64,000 nucleotides of DNA from contig CAJQSY010000014.1 in the NCBI GenBank assembly GCA_905616605.1, forward strand, positions 10,543-74,542, written 5' to 3'. The notes under the pieces are model-generated. The model ran no database searches and was not told the DNA's origin. It was given only the letters and a program-made list of their open reading frames with translations. Source of the stretch: an uncultured Candidatus Pelagibacter sp. Its GTDB lineage: Bacteria > Pseudomonadota > Alphaproteobacteria > Pelagibacterales > Pelagibacteraceae. Numbering within the stretch: position 1 is the stretch's first letter; every line of letters begins with the position of its first letter. Position numbers and translations under genes: made by a program. Of this stretch, positions 37,432-44,590 are shown piece by piece.

Positions 37432-37764
37432 ATGAACATGACAACTTCATATTTATTTCTGATTTTAGCTGTTTTTTTAGGAGTCACATCAAATAGTTTT
37501 GCAAAAAATGCTGAAGGCTTTACCCTTCTCTTTCCAAGTATTATCACAGGAATTACAATCGTTTTATGTATGTATGCTTTATCTTTGGTTATGAAAAATA
37601 TCCCAATGGGAATTACCTATGCTTCATTTGCTGGATTAACAATTATTTCAACTGTAATTGTTGGTGTAATTAGATTTAATCAAGTACCAAATATTTATTC
37701 AATGATTGGTTTGGGTTTAATTATTATAGGTGTATTAATGGTCAACTTATTAGGAAATAATTAA
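37432..37764 (+). CDS. SMR/DMT family transporter (EmrE-like, non-canonical)
   Basis: Four TM segments, K..EGF, IP.GI.YA and G..LII.GV; the Glu14 position is Gly. Confidence 0.8.
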   Translation: MNMTTSYLFLILAVFLGVTSNSFAKNAEGFTLLFPSIITGITIVLCMYALSLVMKNIPMGITYASFAGLTIISTVIVGVIRFNQVPNIYSMIGLGLIIIGVLMVNLLGNN

Positions 37765-37996: not shown

Positions 37997-38332
37997 ATGA
38001 AACCATTTTATGGCTATATAATTTTAAGTGTTGGAATATTAACTGGTATTGCTGCTAATAGTTTTGCAAAAATATCAGATGGATTTTCAAAATTAACACC
38101 TACTATTGCGTGTTTAATTTTAATGTGTGTAACAATGTTTTGCCTGTCAAGGGCAATGTCCGTAATTCCAGTTGGTTTTGCATACTCCACTTATAGTGGA
38201 TTAACAGTTACAGGTGTTTTGATATTTGCCATGATTAAATATAATCAAATTCCAAATCTGTATGGAATTATAGGAATTTTTTTAATTATCATTGGAGTGG
38301 TTATGGTTAATTCTTTAGGAAGATTAACTTAA
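37997..38332 (+). CDS. SMR/DMT family transporter (second paralog, non-canonical)
   Basis: K.SDGF, IPVG.AY and GI.LII.GV; the Glu14 position is Gly. Confidence 0.8.
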   Translation: MKPFYGYIILSVGILTGIAANSFAKISDGFSKLTPTIACLILMCVTMFCLSRAMSVIPVGFAYSTYSGLTVTGVLIFAMIKYNQIPNLYGIIGIFLIIIGVVMVNSLGRLT

Positions 38333-38462
38333 AACTAAAAAAAATTTTATAATTTTTTACGGAAAAAAATATTGTAAGAGTAGTTCTTAAAATTATCGAA
38401 ATTCTATTACTTCATAAAGTTGCATTCAATAAATATATTTAACATAAAACTAAATAAATGTT

Positions 38463-38491
38463 TTGAATACAATATTTAGAAATGTTATTAT
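38463..38491 (+). promoter_or_regulatory. Near-consensus sigma70 promoter
   Basis: TTGAAT(38463)-17 nt-TATTAT(38486) with extended -10 TG. Confidence 0.65.
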
Positions 38492-38497
38492 ATAAGT

Positions 38498-38667
38498 ACC
38501 AATAAAGGAGGATGATTATGAATTTATCACCACCTGACACATAACTGGTGTGATTAAATAATCAAAGACTAGAAAAGACAAAAAAAAATAAATCCATTAT
38601 GGATTTTAGCGTATACCGCTGACTTACAGGGGAACTCTTTTGGAGTTTACCGAAAGGGTGACCCCCT
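38498..38667 (+). ncRNA. Candidate structured RNA containing the 8-codon ORF MNLSPPDT* (38518-38544)
   Basis: AAGGAGG SD, mini-ORF, three hairpins and a GC-rich three-way junction; no downstream same-strand gene. Confidence 0.6.
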
Positions 38668-39044: not shown

Positions 39045-39148
39045 AATAAGAAACTTCCCTCTTTCGAGGGAAGCTAATATTAACTATCTAATAGAGAGAG
39101 AAGATAATGTTAATTTTTGAATTTCGTAAGTGTCTTATAGGAGCACAC
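39045..39148 (-). ncRNA. Candidate trans-acting sRNA with CU-rich anti-RBS loop
   Basis: Terminator CUUCCCUC-GAAA-GAGGGAAG-UUUCUU; hairpin with loop UCUCUCUCUAUU; upstream LysR-type box and TGACA palindrome. The 5' end is uncertain. Confidence 0.6.
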
Positions 39149-39206
39149 ATATAAAAAGTGAAATGACATATTGTCACTTCAGCTATGCAAATAAGGAATA
39201 ACATTT

Positions 39207-39231
39207 AGTTTGTTCACATAGTGAACAAACT
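39207..39231. terminator. Perfect inverted repeat after DUF924 (terminator or operator)
   Basis: AGTTTGTTCAC-ATA-GTGAACAAACT. Confidence 0.55.
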
Positions 39232-41921: not shown

Positions 41922-42764
41922 TTATTCTGCTATTACTTTTGCATTTTGTGAACCAAGTATATCAATTGACAGGTCCATTCTATCACCATCTTTTAAAAAA
42001 AGTGGGGGATTCATTCCAAGTCCTACTCCTGGGGGAGTTCCAGTAGTAACTATGTCTCCAGGCATTAAAGTTATAAAACTTGTTATATGAGCTATCAAAA
42101 AGTTAAAATTAAAAATCATTTGGTTGGTGTTACCTGTTTGATGTCTATTACCATTAACATCTAGCGCTAAGTTCAAATTATTAACATCTTTAATTTCATC
42201 TTTGGTTACTAAATAAGGGCCTAAAGGTCCAAATGTATCACCTGATTTTCCTTTAACCCATTGACCCCCTTTTTCTTTTTGCCATTCACGCTCACTGACA
42301 TCGTTACAAATACAGTATCCAAAAATATAATCTTGTGCATCTTTTTCTAAAACTCTTTTTGCTTTTTTTCCTATAACAAAAGCTATCTCAACTTCATGAT
42401 CTAATTTTTTTGAAGTCTTAGGCATAATTACATTGTCATTTGGTCCAACTATAGAATGAACTGACTTATTAAATAAAACGGGGTTCTCGGGTGTTTTTGC
42501 CCCAGTCTCTTTTGCATGCTCAACATAATTTAAACCGATTGCAAAAAAATTTCCTGGTTTAGAAATACAAGCTCCTATTCTTTCATTTTGATTTACCTCT
42601 TCCAAACTCTTCAAATCTATTTCTTTAATTTTATCTAGAGTTTCAAAATTAATACTTTCAGGATTTAAATCTTTAATAACTGAAGATAAATTTCTATATT
42701 TTCCTTCATCATCTAATGCTACAGGAATTTCTTGTCCTACTTTTCCAATTCTTAAAAATTTCAT
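41922..42764 (-). CDS. Fumarylacetoacetate hydrolase family protein
   Basis: IGLNY..H, DHEVE, NDVSERE.Q, GQWVKGKS and TGTPPGVG motifs. Confidence 0.9.
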   Translation of the reverse strand: MKFLRIGKVGQEIPVALDDEGKYRNLSSVIKDLNPESINFETLDKIKEIDLKSLEEVNQNERIGACISKPGNFFAIGLNYVEHAKETGAKTPENPVLFNKSVHSIVGPNDNVIMPKTSKKLDHEVEIAFVIGKKAKRVLEKDAQDYIFGYCICNDVSEREWQKEKGGQWVKGKSGDTFGPLGPYLVTKDEIKDVNNLNLALDVNGNRHQTGNTNQMIFNFNFLIAHITSFITLMPGDIVTTGTPPGVGLGMNPPLFLKDGDRMDLSIDILGSQNAKVIAE

Positions 42765-43747: not shown

Positions 43748-44590
43748 TTATTCTGCTACAACTTTTGAGTTTTGTTCACCTAAATTATCAATCGATAGTC
43801 TAATTGTATCACCTGCTTTTAAAAATACTTGAGGTTTTTTTCCCATTCCTACACCTGGAGGTGTTCCAGTAGTAATAATGTCACCTGCTTGTAATGTCAT
43901 GAACTTACTTAAATATGAAACTATAAAAAACACATTAAATATCATCTTATCTGTATTCCCAGTTTGCATTCTTTGTTCATTAACATCCAAGCTTAAATTA
44001 AGACTGTTAATGTCAGAGATTTCATTCTTAGTGACCAAATAAGGTCCAATCGGTCCATAGGTGTCATGTGATTTTCCTTTAACCCACTGTCCCATCTTTT
44101 TAAGTTGCCACTCTCTTTCGCTCACATCATTTACTAAACAATACCCAAGAATATGGCTTTCAGCTTCTTTTTCGCTAATATTTTTAGTGTCTTTTCCAAT
44201 AACTATTCCTAATTCAACTTCCCAATCAAGTTCTTTTGAATCTTTTGAAATTTCAATATCATCATTTGGGCCATTGATTGAACTTGTCGCTTTCATAAAT
44301 ACTATGGGTTCTGATGGTTCATCCATGCCAGACTCTGCTGCATGATCAGAATAATTCAAGCCAATTGCTACAAACTTTCCAGGTTTATTAATGCAAGCAC
44401 CTATTCTTTTAGAATTTGAAATTTCGGGTAAGTTTTCTAAATCTACACTTTCTAACTTTTTAATAGTTTCAAAATTTATGGTATCCGAATTTAAATCAGC
44501 TACATGAGAACTCAAATCTCTGATTTTTCCATTTTTATCTAATGCTGCTGGTTTTTCTTTTCCTTTGATGCCTACTCTTAATAACTTCAT
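43748..44590 (-). CDS. Fumarylacetoacetate hydrolase family protein (second paralog)
   Basis: IGLNYSDH, DWEVELG, NDVSERE.Q and TGTPPGVG motifs; clearly similar to 41922-42764. Confidence 0.9.
   Translation of the reverse strand: MKLLRVGIKGKEKPAALDKNGKIRDLSSHVADLNSDTINFETIKKLESVDLENLPEISNSKRIGACINKPGKFVAIGLNYSDHAAESGMDEPSEPIVFMKATSSINGPNDDIEISKDSKELDWEVELGIVIGKDTKNISEKEAESHILGYCLVNDVSEREWQLKKMGQWVKGKSHDTYGPIGPYLVTKNEISDINSLNLSLDVNEQRMQTGNTDKMIFNVFFIVSYLSKFMTLQAGDIITTGTPPGVGMGKKPQVFLKAGDTIRLSIDNLGEQNSKVVAE

What the first reader, a model, noticed from the sequence alone, without database searches (positions are those of the whole stretch)
38463..38667. Stand-alone structured RNA carrying an 8-codon ORF (MNLSPPDT*): possible ribosome-stalling or ribosome-sensing RNA
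Seen in sequence: a near-consensus promoter (TTGAAT-17-TATTAT, extended TG) and a perfect AAGGAGG SD (38505-11), stronger than most RBSs in the window, precede ATG AAT TTA TCA CCA CCT GAC ACA TAA (38518-44). The ORF sits in a hairpin (AUCAC-C-ACC/GGU-GUGAU) with the stop codon in the loop. Then come an A-rich linker, hairpins AAAUCCA/UGGAUUU and UUAGCG/CGCUGA, and a GC-rich three-way junction AGGGG[AACUC-UUUUG-GAGUU][UACC-GAAAG-GGUG]ACCCCCU that abuts the convergent DUF952 stop. There is no downstream same-strand gene, so this is not an ordinary attenuator. Established: PPD is an EF-P-dependent pause triplet. From memory and unverified, PPDx-stop resembles termination-stalling motifs selected in E. 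coli. Inference: an abundant RNA that recruits and holds ribosomes, or couples translation status to an RNA function, in a genome with almost no spare DNA.
Basis: partly seen in the sequence, partly recalled or inferred. Interest (0 to 1): 0.85.

Follow-up and report, generated by a model that had tools for sequence, protein, structure and literature searches.

The report
SAR11 diproline mini-ORF structured RNA
This is a published but untested small-RNA candidate of the ocean bacterium SAR11 ('sORF-2'), in which a conserved tiny reading frame ending Pro-Pro-Asp-Thr-stop lies ahead of three conserved hairpins; it is likely translated, and a ribosome pausing on the prolines likely controls how long the hairpin part survives and acts.

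Summary
The element is real but already published. It is the sORF-2 motif of Stav et al. 2019 (PMC6429828): SAR11, 802 examples, conserved PPDT peptide, SMR gene upstream, convergent DUF952 downstream. It is not in Rfam, and I found no functional study.

Coordinates check out. The three-way junction is wrong: the 3' part is one bulged hairpin (65 of 66 variants). The hairpin over the ORF is not conserved; three 3' hairpins covary on the + strand.

Added here:
- Of 73 distinct homologues found by the 3' part alone, 72 carry SD-ATG-(P/A)Px(T/I)-stop.
- ORF length varies (6-9 codons) and all three stops occur.
- It was found in 65 of 74 genomes of the genus and not in 20 others re-searched.
- A dedicated upstream DNA box travels with it.
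- No Hfq was found in 5 genomes.
- A sister family has a shorter PP(A/T)-stop form.

Best guess (0.4): a diproline pause gates the lifetime of a protein-binding 3' domain. Stalling is untested. The scan had not noted this element before.

The parts
38417..38429 (.). Conserved upstream DNA box, 38 bp before the -35; candidate regulator site; on the - strand it reads as a divergent -35 (38429-38424) with a -10 at 38406-38401
   Evidence: TCAA end of the box at this spacing in 53 of 66 homologues (48 directly, 5 with the anchor shifted 3 nt). The exact 12-mer occurs once, at this place, in 3 of 3 genomes with the RNA and not at all in 2 of 2 without it. Divergent promoter match. Function inferred.
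38463..38491 (+). Predicted promoter: -35 TTGAAT, 17 bp, extended -10 TATTAT; start near 38498 inferred
   Evidence: -35 position conserved, -10 variable
38505..38511 (+). Shine-Dalgarno AAGGAGG
   Evidence: GGAGG invariant in alignment A1 (the extraction required an SD-like word) and present in 72 of 73 homologues found by the 3' part alone; rare before ordinary genes
38518..38544 (+). Short ORF MNLSPPDT*; the conserved part is the C-terminal PP(D/E)(T/I)-stop; its Ser-Pro-Pro codons resemble an anti-SD
38526..38554 (+). P1, weak hairpin over the ORF end; lineage-specific; competes with SD:Pro-codon pairing
38565..38589 (+). A-rich unpaired linker; stop-to-P2 distance 31-48 nt in 67 homologues (45 here)
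38590..38606 (+). P2 hairpin
   Evidence: 96% of cells paired, 6 of 7 pairs with two-sided changes
38607..38621 (+). P3 short hairpin; A-rich or GAAA loop in relatives
   Evidence: 89.5% paired, 4 of 4 pairs with two-sided changes; loops listed
38629..38666 (+). P4 terminal long hairpin with a conserved asymmetric internal loop near its base; not a three-way junction; no U-tract in this copy
37997..38332 (+). Upstream neighbour: small multidrug resistance family gene (context only)
   Evidence: Pfam PF00893
38667..39011 (-). Convergent neighbour: DUF952 gene whose stop abuts P4 (context only)
   Evidence: Pfam PF06108

Best explanation
This is the SAR11 sORF-2 element, a free-standing gene likely transcribed as a ~170-nt RNA whose conserved Pro-Pro mini-ORF is likely translated, and a ribosome pausing there likely sets the lifetime or accessibility of a 3' three-hairpin domain that is predicted to act by binding a protein. 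Shown here: family identity, reading-frame conservation, + strand structure of P2-P4, independence from the neighbouring genes, a co-inherited upstream box. Inferred steps: (1) transcription starts just upstream of the SD under its own regulated promoter; (2) the strong SD loads a ribosome at the 5' end, opening a weak hairpin that the Pro codons form with the SD or with P1; (3) dwell time at Pro-Pro depends on EF-P activity and charged tRNA-Pro; (4) the resident ribosome shields the 5' end from RNase J and possibly limits RNase E entry at the A-rich linker; (5) P2-P4 is the effector. Its partner is unidentified.
For: Identity: Stav Table S1 and supplementary text. Translation: 72 of 73 distinct homologues recovered with the 3' part only have SD-ATG-ORF with Pro third from the end (PPDT 50, PPEI 12, PPYT 4, PPET 3, APDT 2, PPQI 1). 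On a tree built from the 3' part, the five codons P-P-x-x-stop show 38 codon changes but 8 residue changes, and the stop stays a stop through 8 changes among TAA, TAG and TGA. The N-terminus is free in length and sequence, as expected if the ribosome's behaviour matters more than the product. Structure: 23 of 34 pairs with two-sided changes, 0 of 500 shuffles as high, slid controls much lower; G-U on + outnumbers A-C 68:0 in P4 and 22:1 in P3; the + strand folds better in 64 of 67. Independence: neighbours include DUF952, cytochrome c', aminotransferase, GNAT, SOUL and folD-type genes. EF-P in 41 of 41 genomes. RNase J-like and RNase E/G genes in 5 of 5. Hfq in 0 of 5, and the conserved 3' sequence lies in stems, which favours protein binding over pairing. 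Precedent for a 5' ribosome or strong SD stabilising RNA in Bacillus: PMC3997798 passages. Contigs from RNA libraries overlap the element in 8 of 8 runs laid.
Against: No direct evidence of start site, strand, level, translation or pausing; the RNA-library contigs cannot give these, and those of X3, X4 and X5 run through the promoter like DNA. In E. coli only 2.8% of PPX motifs paused significantly even without EF-P (PMC4140641 abstract), and SAR11 has EF-P. Two homologues have Ala-Pro instead of Pro-Pro. The Pro codons are constrained at nucleotide level too (first Pro third base only A/G; second Pro CCU in 62 of 67 against 38% genome-wide), so Pro-Pro could partly be a by-product of an RNA requirement. 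A 5'-bound ribosome does not protect against RNase E in E. coli. No partner protein was identified. A2 was aligned to the model's structure and the model includes the ORF, so those counts lean toward the model; relatives are not independent.
Confidence: 0.4

Rival explanations
1. Translation is only a constitutive 5' shield or unfolding device for the RNA; Pro-Pro follows from an anti-SD-like nucleotide requirement and senses nothing.
For: Third positions around the prolines fit pairing with the RNA's own SD. SD:Pro-codon pairing of at least 3 expected base pairs is predicted in 64 of 67 nascent 5' ends and beats P1 in 42 of 67 longer fragments. A strong SD alone can stabilise RNA.
Against: Any GGAGG can pair with CCxCC, so the pairing is partly automatic. 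It does not explain the conserved (D/E)(T/I) and the fixed stop register.
Confidence: 0.2
2. The 6-9-residue peptide is the functional product; the hairpins only terminate and stabilise its mRNA (one reading offered by Stav et al.).
For: Residue-level conservation of PP(D/E)(T/I); very strong SD; in the sister-family form the last hairpin looks like a plain bidirectional terminator.
Against: Free N-terminus and length; P2, P3 and the P4 internal loop keep specific sequence beyond what a terminator needs; so short a peptide is probably degraded fast (general knowledge).
Confidence: 0.12
3. Dual-function base-pairing sRNA: when untranslated, the anti-SD-like Ser-Pro-Pro codons pair with ribosome-binding sites of target mRNAs.
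For: Stav et al. propose a trans-acting sRNA plus sORF; these codons are the most conserved unpaired sequence; anti-SD seeds are known in alphaproteobacterial cuckoo RNAs (PMC4615179 passages).
Against: No Hfq found in 5 genomes; few SAR11 genes have a strong SD (GGAG before 56 of 798 ORFs); no target search was run.
Confidence: 0.12
4. Ribosome sponge: an abundant RNA that captures ribosomes and holds them at PPDT-stop, with the 3' hairpins contacting the ribosome.
For: Strongest class of SD; limited range of the stop-to-P2 distance, 31-48 nt; weak termination context TARC in most copies against 37 of 798 genome ORFs; no downstream gene to regulate.
Against: The last two residues, the stop codon and the base after it vary; the sister-family form is one codon shorter; not found in some near-complete genomes; abundance not established.
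Confidence: 0.1
5. The hairpins are only the 3' end or terminator of the convergent gene on the - strand, and the ORF is incidental.
For: P4 abuts a convergent stop in most copies, and on the - strand P2 is followed by a U-run.
Against: G-U bias and GAAA loops point to the + strand; the convergent gene changes while the element persists; 8 of 69 copies have no convergent neighbour; one orthologue of a usual neighbour has no element behind it.
Confidence: 0.03

Closest known systems
sORF-2 motif (Stav et al. 2019, BMC Microbiol 19:66, PMC6429828, Fig. 6a, Table S1, supplementary text)
   Same: SAR11 range, short ORF with conserved PPDT next to hairpins, flanking genes diverse and often pointing toward it, SMR upstream and DUF952 downstream. 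This is the same element.
   Different: Nothing in identity. The text I could read gives no experiments and does not mention the PPEI/PPET variants, the upstream box, second copies, the lack of Hfq or the sister-family form; Fig. 6a itself was not visible to me.
Unnamed GC-rich spacer SAR11_0785/qacH in Meyer et al. 2009 (PMC2704228, Table 1)
   Same: 335-nt spacer between SAR11_0785 (DUF952 according to PMC2864753) and a convergent qacH; 334 nt here.
   Different: Listed with 76 BLAST hits, below their threshold of 200, and not analysed.
Leader-peptide attenuators and Pro-sensing leaders such as Salmonella mgtL (mgtL recalled, not checked)
   Same: Short ORF with prolines next to alternative hairpins; ribosome speed as the likely signal.
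   Different: No downstream same-strand gene in 61 of 69 copies; no terminator-antiterminator pair overlapping the ORF.
5' stabilisers (STAB-SD of cryIIIA, hbs, ermC leader stall; PMC3997798 passages)
   Same: Strong SD or slow ribosome at the 5' end, in a cell with an RNase J-like gene.
   Different: Those protect an mRNA in Bacilli; here the protected part would be a non-coding domain in a cell that also has RNase E/G.
Dual-function sRNAs (SgrS/SgrT, rnTrpL/peTrpL; recalled) and cuckoo RNAs (PMC4615179 passages)
   Same: Small RNA plus small ORF; anti-SD-like sequence; Alphaproteobacteria for rnTrpL and cuckoo.
   Different: No Hfq found; no CCUCCUCCC loops; no demonstrated seed or target; no Rfam match.

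Membership tests
sORF-2 motif (Stav 2019) | Short ORF with highly conserved PPDT behind an RBS | tested here: met
sORF-2 motif (Stav 2019) | Adjacent conserved RNA hairpins | tested here: met
   P2-P4 covariation
sORF-2 motif (Stav 2019) | Confined to the SAR11 group | tested here: met
   Named hits with the full architecture are Pelagibacteraceae. Among 150 class-wide genomes, one true hit, in the same family, plus one weak hit without SD or ORF.
sORF-2 motif (Stav 2019) | Diverse flanking genes, often pointing toward the element; SMR upstream and DUF952 downstream among the common ones | tested here: met
sORF-2 motif (Stav 2019) | Match to the published alignment or consensus drawing | not testable with these tools
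   Figures are not held; no alignment file among the 11 supplements listed; not in Rfam
Leader-peptide attenuator | Regulated gene downstream on the same strand | tested here: not met
   Convergent in 61 of 69; the 8 same-strand cases lie 72-148 nt away and differ in gene
Leader-peptide attenuator | Terminator with U-tract and a competing antiterminator overlapping the ORF | tested here: not met
   No + strand terminator called here; P4 lies more than 80 nt from the stop and pairs only locally apart from a copy-specific SD:3'-end pairing
EF-P-dependent pause / arrest peptide | Strong PPX pause triplet | tested here: met
   PPD; variants PPE, PPY, PPQ and APD occur
EF-P-dependent pause / arrest peptide | EF-P encoded by the host | tested here: met
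   41 of 41 genomes including G000
EF-P-dependent pause / arrest peptide | Measured ribosome arrest | not testable with these tools
   Needs toeprinting or Ribo-seq
Termination-stalling peptides selected in E. coli (recalled) | Match to the reported consensus motifs | tested here: inconclusive
   Source paper not held and not returned by the search
Hfq-dependent pairing sRNA | Hfq in the host | tested here: not met
   PF17209 in 0 of 5 genomes, 4 of them at least 99% complete; control rang in 5 of 14 reference genomes
Hfq-dependent pairing sRNA | Conserved unpaired seed with conserved mRNA targets | not tested
   No target search was run; the only conserved unpaired sequence is the SD and the ORF
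Cuckoo RNA | CCUCCUCCC in each hairpin loop | tested here: not met
   no Rfam hit
5' stabiliser | Strong SD at the transcript's 5' end and a 5'-3' exonuclease (RNase J) in the host | tested here: inconclusive
   SD present; full-length TIGR00649 matches in 5 of 5 genomes, 2 over the cut-off, 3 within 5 bits of it; 5' end not mapped

The most novel reading that the evidence does not exclude
sORF-2 is a free-standing translation gauge: an Hfq-independent RNA in the ocean's most abundant bacterium that loads a ribosome on a six-to-nine-codon ORF, reads EF-P or proline-tRNA status through a diproline pause, and converts it into the level of a compact three-hairpin effector acting in trans, an attenuator leader that has no operon and regulates only itself.
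Probability: 0.25. Interest if true: 0.8.

Novelty: already known. Interest (0 to 1): 0.42.

Why it matters
SAR11 keeps very little non-coding DNA, yet most genomes of this genus spend about 250 bp on this element and its own upstream box, and some carry two copies. It has been an orphan since 2019. The comparative data narrow the problem: the ribosome-facing part is PP(D/E)(T/I)-stop, the structured part is P2-P4, and Hfq-type pairing is unlikely. That makes a toeprint, half-life and pull-down test straightforward. If a diproline pause really controls a trans-acting RNA, it would be a new way of coupling translation capacity to regulation in a streamlined cell.

Tried and rejected
Rfam: no match at gathering thresholds over the window; only chance matches at E up to 10 in the region and none at the element in 5 divergent loci. 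tRNA/tmRNA: none in the window; G000 has a separate tmRNA.

Three-way junction rejected. Phage or mobile origin: 0 hits in three viral contigs pattern scans and in 50,697 phage records; one copy in G000.

A loose SD-PP-stop pattern in 5 genomes lacking the RNA gave chance-level counts and no candidate among the listed rows; 29 matches were not listed. Weak model hits L324, L325 and L327 lack the architecture. Five of the 9 pattern hits in family f2 are near-identical to each other; the 2 inspected lie inside a gene on the other strand. A regulon for the upstream box was not found: hits with 1 mismatch were no more frequent than the reversed control, and G000 had only 5 hits outside my called ORFs at up to 2 mismatches, 2 of them at this locus.

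RNA-library contigs: summed depth over the element was far above the flanks in X2 and X11, and X1, X2 and X10 had little or no cover at the promoter. Contig depth and gaps cannot rank expression or give strand, and the runs were chosen for holding this stretch, so this is not used as evidence.

The Red Sea mdRNA-Seq supplement holds no SAR11 start-site table; its PDF was too large to read and may bear on the start site. Follow-up literature: searches returned no functional study of sORF-2 in the listed rows (30 of 120, 4 of 4, 2 of 2, 15 of 410, 25 of 78); subscription journals are not covered.

Full report
Observation. The promoter-like hexamers, SD, ORF, linker and hairpins are at the stated coordinates. 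The spacer lies between an SMR gene on + and a convergent DUF952 gene. The + strand folds far better than shuffles (z = -4.49) and the - strand does not (z = -1.58). Rfam has no matching family.

Identity. Named relatives are Pelagibacteraceae. Stav et al. 2019 (PMC6429828; I read main-text passages, section 15, part 1 of Table S1 and part 1 of the supplementary text, not the figures) list 'sORF-2': SAR11, 802 unique examples, upstream 3-hydroxyisobutyrate dehydrogenase or SMR genes, downstream convergent DUF952, cytochrome c or unknown genes. [quoted passage not shown] I recovered the same neighbours. Meyer et al. 2009 (PMC2704228, parts 1-4 of 8 read) had listed a 335-nt SAR11_0785/qacH spacer without analysing it; SAR11_0785 is DUF952 (PMC2864753 passages). 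The element is therefore a published candidate. My searches found no functional follow-up.

Is the ORF real? My first pattern demanded PPDT-stop and is circular. I therefore scanned metagenomes with the 3' part only (110 matches; 6 dropped for under 110 nt of upstream sequence; 104 collapse to 73 distinct regions). Of these, 72 have GGAGG or GAAGG, an ATG 3-12 nt later and an ORF with Pro third from the end: PPDT 50, PPEI 12, PPYT 4, PPET 3, APDT 2, PPQI 1. The exception keeps the codons but lacks SD and start. I built model R1 from 44 representatives (45 at under 93% identity out of 207 extracted copies; L162 left out for an internal duplication). With it I aligned 69 loci that I chose to span the score range (57 from the genome searches, 12 earlier; 67 distinct). 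All 67 have an in-frame ATG behind GGAGG, with ORFs of 6-9 codons; the model includes the ORF, so this set leans toward it. On a tree from the 3' part (124 columns, many forks unresolved) the codons P, P, x, x and stop change 6, 2, 15, 7 and 8 times but the residues 1, 0, 5, 2 and 0 times; TAG 45, TAA 17, TGA 5. That is the signature of translation (inference). There is also nucleotide constraint: the third base of the preceding codon and of the first Pro is always A or G, and the second Pro is CCU in 62 of 67 against 38% in the genome. These bases fit pairing with the RNA's own SD, predicted in 64 of 67 nascent 5' ends, though any SD can pair with Pro-Pro codons to some degree.

Structure. 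On the model-fitted alignment P2, P3 and P4 are 89-100% paired with two-sided changes at 19 of their 25 pairs, while P1 over the ORF is 50-75% paired with none in its core. The unfitted MAFFT alignment of closer relatives points the same way (8 of 34 pairs, 4 of 500 shuffles as high). G-U pairs on + outnumber A-C 68:0 in P4 and 22:1 in P3 (13:9 in P2), the + strand of the 3' module folds better in 64 of 67, and distant members have GAAA loops on P3. The stop-to-P2 distance is 31-48 nt and A-rich.

Distribution and context. R1 found it in 78 of 151 family genomes including G000 (genus g1 65 of 74; g11 6 of 10; g14 4 of 4; g8 1 of 1; g7 1 of 37; none in six other genera) and in 0 of 27 genomes of the sister family. 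Seven of those genomes have two copies. A broader model found nothing in 20 g1 genomes that were negative before (one of them, G183, is unpublished and counts only as a negative). In one of them the usual neighbour runs straight into another gene. Among 150 class-wide genomes there was no credible hit outside the family. In the sister family, 4 of 5 genomes of genus g3 carry MNPP(A/T)-stop followed by a hairpin, an A-rich linker, P2- and P3-like hairpins and a terminator-like hairpin; homology is likely but rests on architecture and one E = 1e-5 hit. The nearest downstream ORF is convergent in 61 of 69 copies, and the neighbours vary widely. A 12-13-bp box sits 38 bp before the -35 in 53 of 66 copies whatever the upstream gene's strand; its exact form is unique to this site in 3 genomes with the RNA and missing from 2 without it.

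Cellular setting. EF-P is in 41 of 41 genomes, RNase J-like and RNase E/G genes in 5 of 5, Hfq in 0 of 5. One tRNA-Pro (UGG) was found in the 68%-complete G000. Twenty listed runs from 12 studies hold part of the stretch, 17 on record as RNA, and contigs from 8 of 8 runs laid overlap the element. These cannot show strand, ends or level, and three look like DNA.

Mechanism. PPD is among the strongest EF-P-dependent pause triplets in E. coli (PMC13602936 passage; PMC4140641 passages), but only 2.8% of PPX motifs paused significantly even without EF-P. A strong SD or stalled ribosome at a 5' end stabilises RNA in Bacillus but not against RNase E in E. coli (PMC3997798 passages). The free N-terminus, fixed C-terminus, separate structured domain, own promoter box and lack of Hfq fit best with a ribosome-gated RNA whose 3' domain binds a protein (0.4). 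Rivals are a purely constitutive shield (0.2), a functional peptide (0.12), a pairing sRNA (0.12), a ribosome sponge (0.1) and a - strand terminator (0.03). None of the mechanistic steps was measured.

Verdict. Real, conserved and correctly read as stand-alone, but already described as sORF-2. It remains an open orphan in SAR11, and the comparative detail here makes it directly testable. Interest 0.42.

Noticed in passing
window 38401-38429 (-): The conserved upstream box also reads as a divergent -35 with a -10 17 bp away. It would drive a divergent gene in some lineages but is kept where the upstream gene is on the same strand, so it may be a regulator site or give a short antisense transcript.
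   Followed up: partly
L331-L334 (family f2, genus g3): Distant form with MNPP(A/T)-stop, one codon shorter after Pro-Pro, the same hairpin order and a terminator-like last hairpin with A- and U-runs on both sides. Not mentioned in the Stav text that I read.
   Followed up: partly
L303:1469-1646, L304, L305, L140, L160: Paralogous second copies (MSLSPPEI*, MNVSPPET*) lie about 145 nt upstream of a same-strand 58-59-aa charged ORF with no Pfam match that ends in a Pro/Cys-rich tail.
   Followed up: partly
window 37432-37764 and 37997-38332: The two SMR-family genes are separated by a DUF2798 gene, and neither has a glutamate in its first 27 residues, in line with earlier scan notes on glutamate-less SMR pairs in SAR11.
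   Followed up: partly
G000, G119, G137, G068, G037: No Hfq (PF17209) found in any of five Pelagibacterales genomes, while RNase J-like and RNase E/G genes were found in five of five of an overlapping set.
   Followed up: partly
L270:1153-1329 (-), L319:982-1506 (+), L264:1127-1315 (-): Frequent neighbours of the element without any Pfam match: a 59-aa hydrophobic protein, a 175-aa protein and a 63-aa basic protein.
   Followed up: no
window 41922-42764 and 43748-44590: Two similar 280-aa ORFs flank a 289-aa dehydrogenase-like gene; they look like fumarylacetoacetate-hydrolase-family paralogues (label recalled, not scanned).
   Followed up: no
window 39052-39075 (-), 39159-39181 (-), 39207-39231 (-): Three terminator-like hairpins within 180 bp between the DUF924 and DUF952 genes; 4 found in the region against 0.8 expected.
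   Followed up: no
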